In this document: piece after piece, positions 47,739 through 52,283 of the stretch
Layout of the letters: each line of letters starts with the position of its first letter
Position numbering within the stretch: the first letter of the stretch is position 1
Source of the DNA: Longimicrobiales bacterium
GTDB taxonomy: Bacteria; Gemmatimonadota; Gemmatimonadetes; Longimicrobiales; Gaopeijiaceae
Direction: 5' to 3'
DNA length: 64,000 bases
Assembly: GCA_963664435.2 (NCBI GenBank)
Contig: CAXXKM010000002.1
Coordinates: 640,001-704,000, forward strand
Notes under the pieces: model-generated
The model's database searches: none
The model's input: the letters and a program-made list of their open reading frames with translations, nothing else
What the model was told of the DNA's origin: nothing
Program-made: the position numbers and the translations under genes

Positions 47739-47923
47739 CTCGATCGGTCGCCTCCTTCAAGAGCCGTCTGCTTGCAGCTATTATTCGCCGCACTCGTTCC
47801 CCTCCCCGCGCCCGTGATCGCGGACGGATCCTTCCTGGAGAGGTTGCCGTGCTGCCGGAAGCCGTGAAGATGACCGCAGAGCGTCAGCGCTACAAGGGGA
47901 CTTGTGCGCGGGGAGGATTGTGG

Positions 47924-49249
47924 ATGGGCGGAGGACGCCTGCGCGCCCCGTGCCTGATGGCGGCGGCCATCGTCATTCCGGTGCTCTGGCTGGTTGGCTG
48001 CGCCGCCGTGCAACAGCCCCCCGCAGGCGGCGGATCGGTTGGGGCGGCCACGACCGTCGAATCGGGCCCGGCCGGCGGCCGCAACGACCCCCGCCATCTC
48101 GACAAGCCCTACGTGGTGGTGGTGTCGTTCGATGGTTTTCGGCACGACTACATCGAGAGGTTCGACACGCCCAACTTCGACCGCGTGGCGGCCGGGGGCG
48201 CTCGCGCCGATGGGCTGATCCCGGTTTTCCCTTCGCTGACCTTCCCCGCACACTACTCCATCGCAACCGGGCTCTATCCGGGAACCCATGGGCTGGTCGC
48301 CAACACCTTCCATGACCGGGAACTCGATCGCACCTATTCCCTCTCGGACCGGGAGACCGTGGAGGACGGGGAATGGTACGGAGGAGAGCCGATCTGGGTG
48401 ACCGCGGAGAAGCAGGGCATGGTGAGCGCGGCCTTCTATTTCGTCGGATCCGAAGCCGACGTACAGGACCTTCAGCCCAGTTACTGGAAGCGCTTCGACC
48501 CGATCATTCCCAACGAAGTGCGCGTCGATACGGTCCTGACCTGGCTTGCCCTTGCCGAGGAGGAGCGACCCCATCTCGTCTCCCTGTATTTCGCCGAAGC
48601 CGACTACGCCGGACACCGGTTCGGCCCCGGCGAGAGCCCGGAACTGGCACAGGCGGTCGCGCAGGTGGACCAGGCGCTCGGACGTCTCCTGGACGGTCTG
48701 GATGAACTTCCCCACGGCGACCAGGTCTTCGTCCTGCTGGTCTCCGACCACGGTATGAGCGAGGTCCTTTCCGAGGGGCACTACGCGGTCGACGAAATCG
48801 CGGACCTGTCCGGGGTTCGGCTGACGTCCGACGGAACCGTGGGCATTCTGTTCGTGGAGGGGGGCGAGGAGCGCATCGAGGAACTGCGCACACAACTCGA
48901 CGAGGGGATGCCGGAGGCGGAGGTCTACCGGCCCGGCGCAGCTCCAGAGCGACTTCGCCTCAAAGGTCATCCTCGCTTCGGGGATCTGGTGATCGTTCCG
49001 GAGGAGGGGTACACGATCGGCATCGGACCTCGCCGGGGCAGCAGCCGGGGGATGCACGGATGGGATCCCCGGGTCCGGTCCATGCACGGCATCTTCCTTG
49101 TTAAGGGGCCCGGCATCGAGGGGGGCACGCGGCTTCCCCCGATCGAAGGAGTGGACATCTATCCCTTCATGGCCCGGGTGCTCGGTCTCCAGCCTGCCGA
49201 CGGAATCGAGGGCGATCCGGAGGCGCTGGCGGGGTTGGGTCGCCGTTAG
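47924..49249 (+). CDS. Ectonucleotide pyrophosphatase/phosphodiesterase lipoprotein
   Basis: Lipobox LVGC; SFDGFR, FPSLTFPAHYSIATG, DYAGH, SDHGM, GMHGWD. Confidence 0.92.
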   Translation: MGGGRLRAPCLMAAAIVIPVLWLVGCAAVQQPPAGGGSVGAATTVESGPAGGRNDPRHLDKPYVVVVSFDGFRHDYIERFDTPNFDRVAAGGARADGLIPVFPSLTFPAHYSIATGLYPGTHGLVANTFHDRELDRTYSLSDRETVEDGEWYGGEPIWVTAEKQGMVSAAFYFVGSEADVQDLQPSYWKRFDPIIPNEVRVDTVLTWLALAEEERPHLVSLYFAEADYAGHRFGPGESPELAQAVAQVDQALGRLLDGLDELPHGDQVFVLLVSDHGMSEVLSEGHYAVDEIADLSGVRLTSDGTVGILFVEGGEERIEELRTQLDEGMPEAEVYRPGAAPERLRLKGHPRFGDLVIVPEEGYTIGIGPRRGSSRGMHGWDPRVRSMHGIFLVKGPGIEGGTRLPPIEGVDIYPFMARVLGLQPADGIEGDPEALAGLGRR

Positions 49250-49359
49250 GCGCAGCCTCCGAGCCGCTTTCGGGGGCACCTCGGAGGTGTGAGAATTCGG
49301 GCCGTGGCACCACGGGGCCGAGGGGCCGGTGGAGGTCCGTTTTTTCTGCCGACCTCCGC

Positions 49360-49389
49360 TTGACACGCTTCGCGGGATTGCTTTACCTT
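49360..49389 (+). promoter_or_regulatory. Putative sigma70 promoter of the tRNA array
   Basis: TTGACA-N18-TACCTT ending 11 nt before tRNA-fMet. Confidence 0.65.
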
Positions 49390-49400
49390 TCGCTTCTCGT

Positions 49401-49474
<74 letters not shown>

Positions 49475-49478
49475 CTTG

Positions 49479-49504
49479 AAAGCGCCGCCGAATGGCGGCG
49501 TTTT
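49479..49504 (+). terminator. Hairpin with short U-tract after tRNA-fMet
   Basis: AAAGCGCCGCC-GAAT-GGCGGCGTTTT. Confidence 0.55.
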
Positions 49505-49560
49505 CCACGTAGCAGGACGGTTTGACGCAGGCAACAACACAGGAGACCGAGGCGAAGATC

Positions 49561-49689
49561 ATGCCGGAAGCGACCGAAATCCGTCGGCCGTGGGCCTTCC
49601 AGAGGCCGGGCCGCGCGCGGGCGCTTCGCTGGTTTCCGTCCGATACGTGGTCGAGCCCTCGCGGGCGGGGAAGCGGGACTCGCCGGTAG
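49561..49689 (+). CDS. Putative Trp/Phe attenuator leader peptide (42 aa)
   Basis: MPEATEIRRPWAFQRPGRARALRWFPSDTWSSPRGRGSGTRR*; GAGG 8 nt upstream; overlaps alternative helices. Confidence 0.55.
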   Translation: MPEATEIRRPWAFQRPGRARALRWFPSDTWSSPRGRGSGTRR

Positions 49690-49713
49690 CCCCCGGCAGA
49701 CTCCCGACCCAGC

Positions 49714-49745
49714 CGCCCGCACCGAAAAGGTTCGGGCGTTTTTTT
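49714..49745 (+). terminator. Intrinsic terminator (attenuator 3:4) abutting tRNA-Phe
   Basis: CGCCCGcACC-GAAAA-GGTtCGGGCG followed by T7. Confidence 0.75.
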
Positions 49746-49818
49746 GGCCAGGTAGCTCAGTTGGTAGAGCACGCGACTGAAAATCGCGGTGTCGGCGGTT
49801 CGATTCCGCCCCTGGCCA
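49746..49818 (+). tRNA. tRNA-Phe(GAA)
   Basis: CGCGA-CTGAAAA-TCGCG; full cloverleaf. Confidence 0.97.
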
Positions 49819-49861
49819 TCTACCGGCTCACCGGCCGGAGGATGGCCGGGTGTGTGCGCGG

Positions 49862-49934
49862 GGGTCCGTAGCTCAACTGGTAGAGCACCGGTCTCCAAAA
49901 CCGGGGGTTGGGGGTTCGAGTCCCTCCGGGCCTG
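49862..49934 (+). tRNA. tRNA-Trp(CCA)
   Basis: CCGGT-CTCCAAA-ACCGG. Confidence 0.97.
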
Positions 49935-49950
49935 TACAACTGGGGGGAGA

Positions 49951-50022
49951 GCCCTCATCGTCTAACGGCTAGGACACCACTCTTTCAAGGTGGCGGTCGG
50001 GGTTCGATTCCCCGTGAGGGCG
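49951..50022 (+). tRNA. tRNA-Glu(TTC)
   Basis: CCACT-CTTTCAA-GGTGG. Confidence 0.95.
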
Positions 50023-50052
50023 TTTGGAAGGACGCGCCAAGAGCGCGAAACA

Positions 50053-50126
50053 GGGGCTGTAGCTCAGTTGGTTAGAGTGCCGGTCTGTCACACCGGAGGC
50101 CGCGGGTTCGAGTCCCGTCAGCCCCG
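50053..50126 (+). tRNA. tRNA-Asp(GTC)
   Basis: CCGGT-CTGTCAC-ACCGG. Confidence 0.97.
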
Positions 50127-50167
50127 CTTGTTTGTTTCTTGACAAATCGGGTCATCGGCGAAGGATC

Positions 50168-50240
50168 GGGGCCGTAGCTCAGTTGGGAGAGCGCCTGAAT
50201 GGCATTCAGGAGGTCAGGGGTTCGATTCCCCTCGGCTCCA
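50168..50240 (+). tRNA. tRNA-Ala(GGC)
   Basis: CTGAA-TGGCA-TTCAG arm; G3:U70. Confidence 0.97.
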
Positions 50241-50269
50241 TGGCGCAGTCTGTTCGCGAAGGCGAGCGA

Positions 50270-50354
50270 GCTCGGATGGCGGAATTGGTAGACGCGCAGG
50301 ATTCAGGATCCTGTGGGGGTTAACCCCGTGAGGGTTCGAGTCCCTCTCCGAGCA
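50270..50354 (+). tRNA. tRNA-Leu(CAG)
   Basis: CAGGA-TTCAGGA-TCCTG; long variable arm. Confidence 0.96.
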
Positions 50355-50403
50355 TGACAGGCCGCGGCGGCAAGCGGCGGCAGCGTTTCGATGGAGGACA
50401 TTT

Positions 50404-50487
50404 GCCCACGTGCTGGAATTGGTAGACAGGCTGGTTTGAGGGACCAGTGTCGGAAACGGCGTACAGGTTCGAGTCCTGTCGTGGGCA
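50404..50487 (+). tRNA. tRNA-Leu(GAG)
   Basis: CTGGT-TTGAGGG-ACCAG; long variable arm. Confidence 0.96.
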
Positions 50488-50539
50488 CTTGCCGGCCATC
50501 AACGGTCGGCCTTCCTTGCCGAAGGCGGTCGGCAAATCA

Positions 50540-50613
50540 GCGCCCGTAGCTCAATTGGACAGAGCGCTTGACTACGGATCAAGAGGTTGGGGGTTCGAGT
50601 CCTCCCGGGCGTA
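50540..50613 (+). tRNA. tRNA-Arg(ACG)
   Basis: CTTGA-CTACGGA-TCAAG. Confidence 0.97.
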
Positions 50614-50658
50614 TTCCCCTCCGGGGGAGGTGAAGGCCAGGACCTGTTTTCCGGCCGA

Positions 50659-50732
50659 GGGCGCGTAGCTCAGCTGGTTAGAGCGCTACGTTGACATCGT
50701 AGAGGTCAGAGGTTCGAGTCCTCTCGCGCCCA
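50659..50732 (+). tRNA. tRNA-Val(GAC)
   Basis: CTACG-TTGACAT-CGTAG. Confidence 0.97.
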
Positions 50733-50769
50733 TGCGCCGACGCGGCATCCGTGGAGGCGAGCAGGGGCA

Positions 50770-50842
50770 GGGGCCGTAGCTCAGTTGGGAGAGCGCAGCG
50801 TTCGCAACGCTGAGGTCAGGGGTTCGATTCCCCTCGGCTCCA
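50770..50842 (+). tRNA. tRNA-Ala(CGC)
   Basis: CAGCG-TTCGCAA-CGCTG; G3:U70. Confidence 0.97.
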
Positions 50843-50885
50843 TTCCCGGTTGGCCGGCGAGATTCGCGAGGCGGTCGGTATGGTC

Positions 50886-50958
50886 GCCACCATAGCTCAG
50901 CTGGTAGAGCACGTCACTCGTAATGACGGGGTCGTCGGTTCGAATCCGACTGGTGGCT
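50886..50958 (+). tRNA. tRNA-Thr(CGT)
   Basis: CGTCA-CTCGTAA-TGACG. Confidence 0.97.
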
Positions 50959-50964
50959 TGCCGC

Positions 50965-50992
50965 TTGCCAGCCGGCCTGGCGAGCGTAAAAT
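50965..50992 (+). promoter_or_regulatory. Putative internal promoter for tRNA-Gln/Ser
   Basis: TTGCCA-N16-TAAAAT ending 10 nt before tRNA-Gln. Confidence 0.55.
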
Positions 50993-51002
50993 TGGGATTG
51001 GA

Positions 51003-51075
51003 TGCCCCGTGGTGTAACTGGCAACACGTCTGACTCTGGATCAGAAGAGTCCTGGTTCGATCCCAGGCGGGGCAA
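51003..51075 (+). tRNA. tRNA-Gln(CTG)
   Basis: TCTGA-CTCTGGA-TCAGA. Confidence 0.96.
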
Positions 51076-51079
51076 TATC

Positions 51080-51165
51080 GGAGGGGTGGCCGAGTGGCTT
51101 AAGGCGGCGCCCTGCTAAGGCGTTGACCCGAGAGGGTCTCGTGGGTTCGAATCCCACCCCCTCCG
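51080..51165 (+). tRNA. tRNA-Ser(GCT)
   Basis: GCGCC-CTGCTAA-GGCGT; long variable arm. Confidence 0.96.
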
Positions 51166-51186
51166 CTTGCGGGCGAAGCCCGCGAT

Positions 51187-51350
51187 CAGAGGGGGCGTGA
51201 TTCGAACCCGGGGTTCGAGCCTCCGGTGCTTCGCATCCTCGGCTCACCTTCGGCCCGGCTGGCGCCGGCCTCGGTTGCGAATCCCGCGGGCAGATATCAC
51301 CGGGCACGGTCGCGGGCCGCTATCCGAGTCCAGGATTGAGGTTGCCGGTC
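51187..51350 (+). repeat. tRNA-Ser-linked repeat element, copy A
   Basis: Aligns over about 165 bp with 51605-51768; begins with antisense of the tRNA-Ser(GCT) 3' end. Confidence 0.85.
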
Positions 51351-51501
51351 GGGCATCTCGTCCTGGGTTCTGAGGCCCCGGCTTCACTTCGTTCCTTGGG
51401 CGGGTTGCTTCTGACCTCGCGTCAGATATGCTCCGCTGCGGTCAAGCCGGCCGTGCTTCTCTCACCGGTTTCCCTGCAGGTTGTAGTGGCCACAATTGTT
51501 C

Positions 51502-51585
51502 GGACGGGTGGCCGAGTGGCTTAAGGCGCACGATTGGAAATCGTGTGGGCTCACGCCCACGTGGGTTCGAATCCCACCCCGTCCG
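51502..51585 (+). tRNA. tRNA-Ser(GGA)
   Basis: CACGA-TTGGAAA-TCGTG; long variable arm. Confidence 0.96.
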
Positions 51586-51604
51586 CTGACGGCGGAGCCG
51601 CCCT

Positions 51605-51835
51605 CGGACGGGGTGGGCTTCGAACCCAGGGTTGAGCCTTCCGGTGCTTCGCATCCTCGGCTCACCTTCGGCCCGCTGGCGCGGGCCTCGGTTGCGAATC
51701 CCACCCCGGGTAGATACAACGGACACGGTAGGCGGCCGGTCTTCGAACCTAGAGTTGAGGTTGCGGGCGCTTTGCGTCCCCGGCCCGCCTTCGGCACCGC
51801 TGCGCGGCCTCTCGGCTGCGAATCCCACCCCGTCC
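51605..51835 (+). repeat. tRNA-Ser-linked repeat element, copy B (two tandem units)
   Basis: Starts with 23/24 antisense of the tRNA 3' end; units end in CGAATCCCACCCCG (to 51708) and CGAATCCCACCCCGTCC (51819-51835). Confidence 0.88.
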
Positions 51836-51964
51836 TTGGTTCGGACGAGCTGGAGGCTTGGGAGGGCGAATCCTAGGCGCTTTCCGCCGGGGGAATCACC
51901 TTGCCGGGTGGGTGGAGCACCTGCCAATTGTTTGCATCGCCGTCTACGGGCGGTACCCACATTT

Positions 51965-52038
51965 CGGGGCGTGGCTCAGTCCGGTAGAGCGCTGCGTTCG
52001 GGTCGCAGAGGTCCCCGGTTCAAATCCGGGCGCCCCGA
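51965..52038 (+). tRNA. tRNA-Pro(CGG)
   Basis: CTGCG-TTCGGGT-CGCAG. Confidence 0.97.
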
Positions 52039-52094
52039 TTTTGACAGCAGGTGGAGAGGTTTCCGTCCTCAAGCCGATCGGCCCGGTTTCGTCC

Positions 52095-52177
52095 GGAGGC
52101 GTAGTCTAATTGGTAAGGCACCGCACTCGAAATGCGGCGGGCGAAAGCCCTTGGGGGTTCGAGTCCCCCCGCCTCCG
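52095..52177 (+). tRNA. tRNA-Ser(CGA)
   Basis: CCGCA-CTCGAAA-TGCGG; variable arm GGGCGAAAGCCC. Confidence 0.94.
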
Positions 52178-52283
52178 CTTCCATTCCGGTGTCCGTCCCC
52201 GCGCCCTCCCATGACCAGTCGGGGCGACGATCATCACGGTCGCAGCTGGCACATGGGCATCTGATCGCCGGGAGGTCCAGGCC

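What the first reader, a model, noticed from the sequence alone, without database searches (positions are those of the whole stretch)
49549..49934. Candidate ribosome-mediated attenuator controlling tRNA-Phe/tRNA-Trp genes (tRNA supply feedback)
Seen: SD + 42-codon ORF (49561-49689) with W11, F13, W24-F25 and W30. Mutually exclusive helices: 1:2 = TTTCCGTCCG(49633-42, starting at the Phe codon)/CGGGCGGGGA(49662-71); 2:3 = GCGGGCGG(49661-68)/CCGCCCGC(49713-20) plus CGGGA(49674-78)/TCCCG(49702-06); 3:4 = terminator 49714-38 + T7 ending at the base before tRNA-Phe. The next genes are tRNA-Phe and tRNA-Trp, then Glu and Asp, whose codons also occur in the leader. Known: this is the geometry of trpL/pheL/pheM attenuators, where stalling on control codons frees segment 2 and permits read-through. 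Inference: shortage of charged tRNA-Trp/Phe turns on transcription of the cognate tRNA genes themselves. I know of no described leader-peptide attenuator for tRNA genes. Caveat: no clear dedicated promoter, so it may rely on read-through past the weak hairpin after tRNA-fMet.
Basis: partly seen in the sequence, partly recalled or inferred. Interest (0 to 1): 0.9.

Follow-up and report, generated by a model that had tools for sequence, protein, structure and literature searches.

The report
Leader-peptide attenuator gating a tRNA operon
A tiny translated gene with a conserved tryptophan codon, wired to a stop/go RNA switch, sits between the initiator tRNA gene and sixteen other tRNA genes of this Gemmatimonadota bacterium, and probably lets slow translation turn up tRNA production.

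Summary

The element is conserved. It recurs in 85 stretches of public genomes, nearly all titled Gemmatimonadota, always between tRNA-fMet and tRNA-Phe-Trp. In 82 unique copies:
- Each helix (1:2, 2:3, 3:4) is about 87-88% paired, with more compensatory changes than shuffled or slid controls.
- The reading frame from the conserved Trp codon to the stop is kept in 80/82, while neighbouring non-coding segments vary freely.
- The core peptide is W-[T/L]-V-[A/S]-D-T-W-S.

Masking RNA as a ribosome would gives a terminator at the stop codon (81/82) and an antiterminator when stalled at the Trp codon (52/82; yes in the window). The only sigma-70-type promoter lies upstream of tRNA-fMet, and the downstream tRNAs are mostly sole copies.

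Best reading: a ribosome-dependent attenuator of a tRNA operon (about 0.65). The sensed signal is inferred, not shown. Phe codons, W11 and F13 are not conserved outside the genus.

Eight literature searches found no such control of tRNA genes. Earlier unchecked notes of this scan report similar elements on other DNA, mostly phages. No experimental 3' ends were available.

The parts
49360..49389 (+). Sigma-70-type promoter of the whole array: TTGACA (49360-65), 17-18 nt spacer, TTACCT/TACCTT (49383-89), about 12 nt before tRNA-fMet
   Evidence: Read. TTGACA-N17/18-TACCTT / TATACT / TATAAT / TATTAT stands at the same place in 20 of 20 related loci examined. No such pattern was found in 16 of 16 Met-Phe spacers or in the window's spacer.
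49401..49475 (+). tRNA-Met (CAT), initiator type
   Evidence: The sequence shows an unpaired 1:72 position and three G-C pairs closing the anticodon stem. That these are initiator determinants is recalled knowledge. Two other CAT tRNAs lie elsewhere in the genome.
49478..49505 (+). Hairpin GCGCCGCC-GAAU-GGCGGCG plus U4 directly after tRNA-fMet, followed by the conserved CCACGUAG motif (49505-12)
   Evidence: fold. Conserved across the order, including lineages that lack the leader. Where the ATG follows directly (L112, L132, L140) there is no room for a separate promoter.
49549..49552 (+). Shine-Dalgarno GAGG, 8 nt before the ATG
   Evidence: An SD-like motif occurs at -17..-4 in 47 of 72 unique ATG-started leaders, against 0.20 of background windows.
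49561..49689 (+). Leader ORF of 42 codons with UAG stop at 49687-89. An alternative TTG start at 49522 is not conserved.
   Evidence: ATG, a length of 42 codons and the same stop are kept with no indel in 13 of 13 close same-genus loci. The frame from the Trp codon to the stop is kept in 80 of 82 family members.
49630..49635 (+). W24-F25 codons (UGG UUU). W24 corresponds to the family's first conserved Trp (position -6).
   Evidence: TGG at position -6 in 73 of 82, a position not fixed by my search pattern. F25 is specific to this genus.
49633..49642 (+). Segment 1 (UUUCCGUCCG) of the window, which pairs with segment 2
   Evidence: -17.2 kcal/mol. The family consensus uses GCCCGC (the S-P-R codons) instead: 87.2% paired, 19 cells changed on both sides against 5.4 in shuffles.
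49642..49650 (+). D28-T29-W30 codons (GAU ACG UGG). W30 is the candidate control codon.
   Evidence: D-T-W recurs about 100 nt before tRNA-Phe in 85 stretches. The covariance-model search also found E-A-W, D-S-W and D-A-W variants. A ribosome with W30 in the A site would cover to about 49660, masking segment 1 and leaving segment 2 free (geometry inferred; folds).
49661..49678 (+). Segment 2 (GCGGGCGG plus CGGGA), the 5' strand of the antiterminator, inside the ORF
   Evidence: Family-wide 87.3% paired with segment 3, with 16 cells changed on both sides against 4.9 in shuffles, 0 of 500. The same nucleotides are read in another frame in this genus, so the constraint here is at the RNA level.
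49702..49720 (+). Segment 3 (UCCCG ... CCGCCCGC), shared by antiterminator and terminator
49714..49745 (+). Intrinsic terminator: stem 49714-19 and 49721-23 with 49729-31 and 49733-38, loop GAAAA, U7 at 49739-45
   Evidence: -16.7 kcal/mol. Family-wide 88.4% paired, 42 cells changed on both sides against 16.1 in shuffles, 0 of 500, and all slid controls are lower.
49746..52178 (+). Regulated unit: 16 tRNA genes (Phe, Trp, Glu, Asp, Ala, Leu, Leu, Arg, Val, Ala, Thr, Gln, Ser, Ser, Pro, Ser)
   Evidence: By my reading of ARAGORN's list, 11 of the 16 anticodons occur nowhere else in the genome (Phe among them). Second hits exist for Trp (70 nt, odd), Ser-GCT, Ser-GGA and Arg (TCG, overlapping an antisense Gln hit), and a separate Glu-CTC gene also exists. 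The gene order is conserved across the order.

Best explanation
This is a ribosome-dependent (leader-peptide) transcription attenuator placed inside a tRNA operon.

Proposed sequence of events:
1. Transcription starts at the single sigma-70-type promoter before tRNA-fMet and runs through that tRNA and its trailing hairpin into the leader.
2. A ribosome loads at GAGG/AUG (49549/49561).
3. If it translates without delay to UAG (49687-89), it melts segments 1 and 2 and sits on the apex of the antiterminator. Segment 3 then pairs with segment 4, and RNA polymerase terminates in the U7 tract, one base before tRNA-Phe.
4. If it is held at the conserved Trp codon W30 (in this genus also W24/F25), it masks segment 1 and leaves segment 2 free. 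The much stronger 2:3 hairpin (-40 against -17 kcal/mol) forms first, and the polymerase reads on into tRNA-Phe, tRNA-Trp and 14 more tRNA genes.

The loop is a feedback. Slow decoding, most simply scarce Trp-tRNA(Trp), raises synthesis of the elongator tRNAs relative to the initiator tRNA. Fast decoding lowers it.

Shown here: the parts, their conservation, the covariation of all three helices, reading-frame conservation, and the single promoter.

Inferred: that the hairpin terminates, that the leader is translated, and what stalls the ribosome.
For: - Anatomy in the window fits the three-state logic. Folding free RNA gives a terminator with no ribosome, an antiterminator with a ribosome stalled at W30, and a terminator with a ribosome at the stop.
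- Conservation within the genus: 13 same-genus genomes keep the whole spacer at 79-95% identity, with ATG, 42 codons and the stop unchanged and no indel inside the ORF.
- Conservation beyond the genus: a pattern scan of one genome per species found 85 stretches, nearly all titled Gemmatimonadota. In 85 of 85 the D-T-W codons lie in an ORF whose stop is 55-78 nt before tRNA-Phe.
- Covariation on 82 unique sequences:
  - terminator 88.4% paired, 42 cells changed on both sides against 16.1 in shuffles;
  - antiterminator 87.3%, 16 against 4.9;
  - helix 1:2 87.2%, 19 against 5.4;
  - each 0 of 500 shuffles, and each above all slid controls.
- Translation: the length from W to the aligned stop is the same modulo 3 in 80 of 82, while the adjacent non-coding segment splits 37/21/24 and the terminator loop 31/33/18. 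SD-like motifs occur in 47 of 72 against 0.20 background.
- Peptide-level conservation at positions my pattern did not fix: Ser at +1 in 81 of 82, encoded by both AGY (41) and TCN (40) codons, and Trp at -6 in 73 of 82.
- Ribosome-mask folds across the family: at the stop codon 81 of 82 form the terminator. Stalled at the Trp codon, 52 of 82 form the antiterminator.
- Read-through is required. tRNA-Phe and 10 other tRNA species of the array are sole copies by my reading. The conserved promoter lies before tRNA-fMet in 20 of 20 loci, with none found in 16 of 16 spacers.
- Co-loss: lineages of the same family without the ORF (for example genus g20, 0 of 20 by the covariance model) also have a degenerate hairpin, judged by eye.
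- Specificity: the covariance model finds one strong copy in the own genome (93.6 bits) and one per positive genome. Two positive genomes drew weak partial matches only, and one genome has a second, weak match.
- Weak support from RNA libraries: in three metatranscriptome runs from two studies, one contig each (375, 352 and 347 nt, about 95% identical) bridges tRNA-fMet, leader, terminator and tRNA-Phe.
Against: - No experimental 3' end, translation or regulation data exist. The RNA-library contigs cannot show ends or strand, and DNA carry-over is not excluded.
- In equilibrium folds, 25 of 82 sequences still form the terminator when stalled at the Trp codon, and 34 of 82 form the antiterminator with no ribosome. 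The thermodynamic picture is therefore not uniform, and kinetics were not modelled.
- Only one Trp codon sits at the effective position, with a second six codons upstream where a stall would not mask the consensus segment 1. Classical attenuators use tandem or many control codons.
- Residues around the Trp (W-T-V-A/S-D-T-W-S) are conserved as amino acids. A pure control-codon model does not need this.
- One species of the same genus (G006) has lost start, Trp and stop but keeps the hairpins. One f3 leader has Arg in place of Trp.
- The shuffle control ignores relatedness, and the structures were drawn from the consensus (caveats stated).
- Several compensatory-looking cells in 2:3 are matched by similar numbers of mismatched ones, for example A in segment 2 opposite C in L091, L113 and L152.
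- Raising stable-RNA synthesis when ribosomes stall runs against the usual stringent logic.
Confidence: 0.65

Rival explanations
1. The switch works as an attenuator, but the sensor is the nascent peptide. The conserved W-T-V-[A/S]-D-T-W-S stretch acts in the exit tunnel as an arrest peptide (in the manner of TnaC or SecM). It would hold the ribosome in response to a ligand or to ribosome state, rather than to scarcity of Trp-tRNA.
For: - Amino-acid-level conservation is not needed for codon sensing. Ser at +1 occurs in 81 of 82 through two unrelated codon families, and Trp at -6 in 73 of 82 lies where a stall would not mask the consensus segment 1.
- Asp/Glu at -2 is kept in the variants found by the covariance model and recurs 1-4 residues before Trp in most of the f3 leaders.
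- The Trp lies a near-constant 11-12 residues before the C-terminus in 74 of 82.
Against: - No similarity to any known arrest peptide family: Pfam and NCBIfam gave 0 hits.
- The R-A-G after the Trp, which recalls SecM's RAGP (motif as quoted in PMC10987492), is read in another frame in this genus. It is therefore an RNA constraint, and no proline follows.
- The constant Trp-to-stop distance is equally explained by segment 2 lying between them.
- Positions -3 to 0 were fixed by my own search pattern, so their invariance in the 82 is not evidence.
Confidence: 0.13
2. The ORF is an independent small-protein gene with its own, constitutively leaky, terminator. The leak merely sets a fixed ratio of initiator to elongator tRNAs, and the alternative pairings are by-products of G+C-rich sequence.
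For: - Frame and peptide conservation fit any translated gene.
- Terminator-like hairpins also stand between tRNA-fMet and tRNA-Phe in relatives without any ORF (family f2, spacers of 52-215 nt). Leaky hairpins inside this array therefore exist without a leader.
- 34 of 82 fold as antiterminator even without a ribosome.
Against: - Helices 1:2 and 2:3 each show more compensatory change than shuffled or slid controls.
- The stop codon sits at the apex of the antiterminator, and its frame is kept in 80 of 82.
- The N-terminal half is highly variable in length and sequence, as in leader peptides.
- The peptide is absent from protein collections by exact look-up and matches no family.
- The ORF and the strong hairpin are lost together in genus g20.
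Confidence: 0.12
3. A purely RNA-level element. The hairpins guide processing or stabilise pieces of the polycistronic tRNA precursor (RNase P/E/Z sites, 3'-exonuclease barriers), and the ORF is incidental.
For: - The hairpin abuts the RNase P site of tRNA-Phe.
- The trailing hairpin of tRNA-fMet and its CGUAG motif are conserved even where there is no leader.
- G006 keeps the hairpins without an ORF.
Against: - Modulo-3 length conservation holds only in the ORF part, 80 of 82 against 37/21/24 in the neighbouring segment.
- SD-like motifs are enriched.
- Ser is kept across AGY and TCN codons.
- Synonymous GAU/GAC and TCU/TCG/TCC variation is seen.
Confidence: 0.05

Closest known systems
Leader-peptide transcription attenuators of amino-acid operons and of pheST (E. 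coli trpL, pheL, hisL, leuL, thrL, pheM)
   Same: A short SD-led ORF overlapping segment 1. Three mutually exclusive helices (1:2, 2:3, 3:4). A G+C-rich terminator with a U tract just before the first regulated gene. A codon for a rare amino acid placed so that a stalled ribosome masks segment 1. The textbook model is as described in the introduction of PMC3082878 (passages read).
   Different: - The regulated genes are tRNA genes, not biosynthetic or synthetase genes.
- The leader is internal to the transcription unit, downstream of tRNA-fMet.
- There is one effective Trp codon rather than a tandem run.
- The surrounding residues are conserved as amino acids.
- The phylum is Gemmatimonadota.
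- No Rfam leader family matches, even at E up to 10.
T-box riboswitches
   Same: They also couple tRNA charging status to read-through of a terminator through an antiterminator.
   Different: They sense uncharged tRNA directly by RNA-RNA contact and need no translation. No T-box match was found, and the element here carries a conserved translated frame.
Regulatory arrest peptides (TnaC of the tna operon; SecM with F150xxxxWIxxxxGIRAGP166, as quoted in PMC10987492)
   Same: A short conserved peptide with an essential-looking Trp some 11-12 residues before the C-terminus, controlling downstream expression in cis. TnaC's conserved residues (W12, D16, P24) are recalled, not checked here.
   Different: No sequence similarity and no terminal proline. 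The R-A-G codons are an RNA constraint. The read-out here is an intrinsic terminator, not Rho (tna) or SD unmasking (secA). Arrest was not tested.
Leader-plus-terminator elements before tRNA arrays noted earlier in this scan (e1-2978539; phage cases such as e1-5886956 and e1-5943215)
   Same: The same idea: a small ORF and a switchable terminator directly before tRNA genes. Those agents also found no publication.
   Different: - Those are AI notes on other DNA, mostly phage arrays or spare tRNAs, and I did not test them.
- There is no sequence relation: the look-up by sequence found nothing.
- The present case gates a bacterium's main, mostly sole-copy tRNA operon.
- It shows no significant codon matching to the array.

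Membership tests
Ribosome-dependent (leader-peptide) transcription attenuator | Short ORF with ribosome-binding site upstream of the regulated genes, under selection to stay open | tested here: met
   ORF 49561-49689 with GAGG 8 nt upstream. Intact in 13 of 13 close relatives. Frame kept in 80 of 82. SD-like motif in 47 of 72 against 0.20 background.
Ribosome-dependent (leader-peptide) transcription attenuator | Intrinsic terminator (G+C hairpin plus U tract) between the leader and the regulated genes | tested here: met
   49714-38 plus U7, -16.7 kcal/mol. 88.4% paired, with 7 of 11 pairs showing changes on both sides. That it terminates was not shown.
Ribosome-dependent (leader-peptide) transcription attenuator | Antiterminator mutually exclusive with the terminator | tested here: met
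   49661-78 with 49702-20, -40.1 kcal/mol. 87.3% paired, 16 cells changed on both sides against 4.9 in shuffles.
Ribosome-dependent (leader-peptide) transcription attenuator | Segment 1 inside the ORF pairs with segment 2 (anti-antiterminator) | tested here: met
   Window 49633-42 with 49662-71, -17.2 kcal/mol. Family consensus GCCCGC/GCGGGC is 87.2% paired, 19 against 5.4.
Ribosome-dependent (leader-peptide) transcription attenuator | Run of control codons for the sensed amino acid, placed so that a stalled ribosome masks segment 1 | tested here: inconclusive
   One Trp codon sits at the right place. It is invariant in intact copies except one f3 leader, which has Arg. A second Trp lies six codons upstream in 73 of 82. 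There is no tandem run, and Phe is not conserved.
Ribosome-dependent (leader-peptide) transcription attenuator | Read-through responds to charged-tRNA supply | not testable with these tools
   Only contigs from RNA libraries were available, and they cannot show ends.
T-box riboswitch | Match to the T-box model (specifier loop, T-box sequence) | tested here: not met
   No Rfam match other than tRNA at gathering score. No T-box among matches with E up to 10 on 49300-49800.
Known Rfam amino-acid leader families | Covariance-model match | tested here: not met
   None among the 15 matches with E up to 10. All non-tRNA matches are far below their gathering scores.
SecM / RAPP-like arrest peptides | C-terminal R-A-(P/G)-(P/G) motif at the arrest site (PMC10987492) | tested here: not met
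   R-A-G is present in many members, but no proline follows and it is frame-shifted to R-G-R-G in this genus. Pfam gave 0 hits.

The most novel reading that the evidence does not exclude
The leader is a dedicated decoding sensor. Its conserved nascent peptide (W-T-V-[A/S]-D-T-W-S) programmes the ribosome to pause at the Trp codon. The cell thereby uses one test translation to set the output of its main elongator-tRNA operon relative to initiator tRNA. This would be a translational-capacity feedback on tRNA synthesis, acting by attenuation rather than at the promoter, and an arrest peptide of a new kind.
Probability: 0.25. Interest if true: 0.9.

Novelty: new variant of a known kind. Interest (0 to 1): 0.8.

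Why it matters
- Control of tRNA gene expression in bacteria is known mainly at the promoter (growth rate, ppGpp). A leader-peptide attenuator in front of tRNA genes would be a direct feedback from decoding speed to tRNA supply.
- Placing it after the initiator tRNA would let a cell change the initiator-to-elongator tRNA ratio.
- It extends leader-peptide attenuation to Gemmatimonadota and to a new class of target.
- The element is small, conserved in about 80 species-level genomes and rich in natural variants. These include one decayed copy in the same genus and lineages that lost both ORF and hairpin. It is therefore directly testable with reporter and in vitro systems.
- Together with the unchecked notes of similar elements before phage tRNA arrays in this scan, it suggests a wider, undescribed regulatory theme.

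Tried and rejected
- **Codon matching.** The idea was that leader codons are chosen to match the array's tRNAs. 28 of 41 codons are cognate against a genome fraction of 0.585 (binomial P = 0.13). A run of 12 has simulated P = 0.02 but was picked post hoc. Codon usage came from long ORFs, some of them spurious. About a quarter of family members use ACC/ACA/ACU for Thr at -1, which the array's Thr-CGU tRNA does not read. Rejected as evidence.
- **Long-range helix.** The MFE pairs 49505-20 with 49637-51. Relatives with ACC UGG show no compensating change upstream (by eye, 3 loci). The upstream CGUAG motif is also kept where there is no leader. Rejected.
- **A remembered precedent.** I recalled a Phe-rich leader before E. 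coli tRNA-Phe genes. The 106 nt between yqgA and pheV of K-12 hold a promoter-like TTGACG...TTTAAT and no such ORF or terminator. pheU was not checked. Recollection not supported.
- **Database look-ups.** Rfam at permissive threshold, Pfam and NCBIfam and an exact look-up of the peptide in protein collections found nothing.
- **Weak covariance-model matches.** Of the four weak, partial matches (E 7e-8 to 1e-3), one lies at the tRNA array itself (G006, the decayed copy). The other three lie in loci without tRNAs. The one inspected (L188) is the ordinary terminator of a protein gene. L186 and L187 were not inspected.
- **RNA libraries.** Contigs bridge the element but cannot show 3' ends, strand or level. 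I first took the uncovered stretch 49250-49373 as a silent-DNA control. That is not valid, because the covered organism is a relative whose upstream sequence differs.
- **Strict pattern outside family f1.** 0 of 332 genomes of other families were positive. This shows only that the exact D-T-W / tRNA-Phe pattern is missing there. Family f3 has a variant leader (A-D-S-W type).
- **Earlier findings by place and by sequence.** None.
Full report
**What is there**

The window holds an array of 17 tRNA genes at 49401-52178. The first is a tRNA-Met of initiator type. Its sequence shows an unpaired 1:72 position and three G-C pairs closing the anticodon stem; that these mark initiators is recalled knowledge.

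It is separated from the next gene, tRNA-Phe, by 269-270 nt, whereas most other spacers are 4-50 nt (two are over 300 nt).
- a hairpin with U4 directly behind tRNA-fMet;
- GAGG and an ATG-started 42-codon ORF, 49561-49689;
- three mutually exclusive helices: 1:2 at -17.2, 2:3 at -40.1 with the UAG stop in its apical loop, and 3:4 at -16.7 kcal/mol;
- a U7 tract that ends one base before tRNA-Phe +1.

**The hairpin cannot be a simple strong terminator**

By my reading of ARAGORN's list, tRNA-Phe and 10 other tRNA species of the array have no second gene for that anticodon in the 4.5-Mb genome. Trp, Ser-GCT, Ser-GGA and Arg have second hits; the Trp one looks dubious and the Arg one overlaps an antisense hit.

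A TTGACA-N17/18-TACCTT / TATACT / TATAAT promoter stands about 12 nt before tRNA-fMet in 20 of 20 related loci. No such pattern occurs in 16 of 16 spacers or in the window's spacer.

In some relatives the leader's SD and ATG follow the tRNA-fMet hairpin directly. That leaves no room for a promoter of the usual kind. The elongator tRNAs therefore depend on read-through of this hairpin.

**Conservation**

Within the genus, 13 genomes keep the whole spacer at 79-95% identity. The ATG, the 42 codons and the stop are unchanged, and there is no indel inside the ORF although indels occur on both sides.

In other genera of the family, and in a second family of the order, the Met-spacer-Phe-Trp-Glu arrangement persists. 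Many spacers hold a small ORF ending in ...[A/S]-D-T-W-S-(S)-P-R... or ...A-D-S-W..., followed by a hairpin and a U tract.

A pattern scan of one genome per prokaryote species looked for [A/S]-D-T-W codons 85-115 nt before the tRNA-Phe 5' end. It found 85 stretches, nearly all titled Gemmatimonadota, Longimicrobiales or Gemmatimonadales, with five labelled otherwise. In 85 of 85 the motif lies in an ORF whose stop is 55-78 nt before tRNA-Phe.

In an even sample of the phylum the strict pattern hits 22 of 401 genomes. All are in the window's family (21 of 69 without the window; 0 of 332 in other families). The reversed control pattern hits none.

A covariance model built from 82 unique copies gave these results:
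- one strong match in the own genome (93.6 bits), plus one chance-level match (E = 0.2);
- 20 of 50 sampled genomes of the family, one copy each (one genome has a second, weak match; G006's match is weak and partial);
- one weak, partial match each in families f2 and f3, in loci without tRNAs.

In other families of the class examined (one genome each of f4, f5 and f8; f10 of another class), tRNA-Phe stands apart from tRNA-Trp. In the three class genomes it has no tRNA within 1.5 kb, and in f5 and f10 a sigma-70-like promoter is visible.

**RNA structure**

On the 82-sequence alignment all three helices are supported:

| Helix | Cells paired | Cells changed on both sides | Same, shuffled mean |
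|---|---|---|---|
| Terminator 3:4 | 88.4% | 42 | 16.1 |
| Antiterminator 2:3 | 87.3% | 16 | 4.9 |
| Helix 1:2 | 87.2% | 19 | 5.4 |

In each case 0 of 500 shuffles reach the observed percentage paired or covariation score, and every slid control is lower.

Two caveats apply. The shuffles ignore relatedness, and I drew the structures from the consensus. Some A-for-G changes in segment 2 are compensated (L074, L109, L131) and others are not (L091, L113, L152).

**Translation**

- The length from the Trp codon to the aligned stop is constant modulo 3 in 80 of 82. The next non-coding segment splits 37/21/24 and the terminator loop 31/33/18.
- SD-like motifs precede 47 of 72 unique ATG starts, against 0.20 of background windows.
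- At positions my pattern did not fix, Trp stands at -6 in 73 of 82. Ser stands at +1 in 81 of 82 through AGY (41) and TCN (40) codons.
- The R-A-G that follows in most members is the same GCGGGCGGG that forms segment 2. In this genus it is read in another frame, so that part is constrained as RNA.

**Does the geometry work?**

I masked the RNA as a ribosome would (A-site codon plus 12 nt) and folded the rest. Results were classed by how the terminator's 5' arm pairs:

| Ribosome position | Terminator | Antiterminator | Other |
|---|---|---|---|
| At the stop codon | 81 of 82 | 0 | 1 |
| Stalled at the conserved Trp codon | 25 | 52 | 5 |
| No ribosome | 41 | 34 | 7 |

The window itself gives terminator, antiterminator, terminator for no ribosome, stall at W30, and stop.

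In the consensus, the Asp, Thr and Trp codons are the three A-site positions at which a stalled ribosome would cover segment 1 yet leave segment 2 free. This follows from the alignment columns and an assumed footprint; it is inferred.

**What is sensed?**

The simplest reading is scarcity of Trp-tRNA(Trp), whose gene is the second one downstream.

General matching of leader codons to the array's tRNAs is not significant (28 of 41 against 0.585, P = 0.13).

The amino-acid-level conservation of W-T-V-[A/S]-D-T-W-S leaves room for a nascent-peptide effect. No known peptide or RNA family matches.

**Losses**

One species of the same genus (G006) has lost start, Trp and stop but keeps the hairpins. 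Genus g20 (0 of 20 by the model) keeps only remnants of both the ORF and the hairpin's 3' arm, judged by eye. Family f2 has short spacers, mostly 52-111 nt, holding only the tRNA-fMet hairpin and a U5-6 tract.

**RNA data**

Three metatranscriptome runs from two studies each hold one contig (375, 352 and 347 nt, about 95% identical to the window). Each runs from inside tRNA-fMet through leader and hairpin into tRNA-Phe. This shows that the bridged form is present in RNA libraries of a close relative. Contigs cannot show ends or strand, and DNA carry-over is not excluded.

**Literature**

Eight full-text searches listed no paper on leader-peptide or attenuator control of tRNA genes. I saw listings and abstract starts only, and read passages of three papers:
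- PMC3082878;
- PMC2965389, which has no mention of tRNA genes among its attenuated families in the terms searched;
- PMC10987492.

Subscription-only papers are outside this library. My recollection of a leader before E. coli tRNA-Phe genes was not borne out by the pheV upstream sequence.

Earlier, unchecked notes of this scan describe similar leader-plus-terminator elements before tRNA arrays on other DNA, mostly phages. None is related in sequence.

**Unpublished genomes**

Three genomes flagged as unpublished (G025, G052, G097) count only in the tallies (G025 also, and they may count).

**Verdict**

The attenuator reading is well supported by comparative evidence, though no experiment bears on it. 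The specific Trp/Phe sensing claim is only partly supported.

It is a new variant of a known kind: leader-peptide attenuation applied to a tRNA operon, with an unusually conserved peptide.

Noticed in passing
window 51180-51843: Three copies of a roughly 100-nt repeat fill the two unusually long spacers of the array, after tRNA-Ser(GCU) and after tRNA-Ser(GGA). Each begins with TTCGAACC and ends with a T-arm-like GCGAATCCC. They may be decayed tRNA-derived units or a small structured element.
   Followed up: partly
window 49478-49512: The hairpin directly after tRNA-fMet and the following C(C)ACGUAG motif are conserved across the order, including lineages without any leader ORF. In some lineages the motif doubles as the leader's SD. 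Its own role (processing site, weak terminator) is unknown.
   Followed up: partly
window 49645-49650 with 49748-49753: RNAalifold pairs the Thr-Trp codons (ACNUGG) with bases 3-8 of tRNA-Phe (CCAGGU) in 82 of 82 sequences. Both sides were fixed by my search pattern, so this may be coincidence. The covariance-model variants (UCC, GCU, GCG before UGG) all keep C in the middle of the codon.
   Followed up: partly
L185 (G006, same genus), locus 1364-1592: A natural knock-out. The leader has lost its ATG, Trp has become Arg and the stop has become Gln, while segment 2, the middle hairpin and the terminator plus U6 remain.
   Followed up: partly
L040 and L067 (family f3), Met-Phe spacers: Partial tandem duplications of the 5' part of tRNA-Phe, together with its upstream sequence, lie inside the spacer.
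   Followed up: no
window 49401-52178 and G000 genome: 17 of the genome's 55 ARAGORN tRNA calls sit in one 2.8-kb array, whose order is conserved across three families. It includes tRNA-Trp, which I recall usually lies by the tuf/secE genes. In the class genomes checked outside this order, Phe and Trp are adjacent only in f7.
   Followed up: partly
window 49323-49345: A terminator-like hairpin plus T6 lies after the stop (49247-49) of the 466-aa ORF at 47849-49249 and just upstream of the array promoter. That ORF's family was not searched.
   Followed up: no
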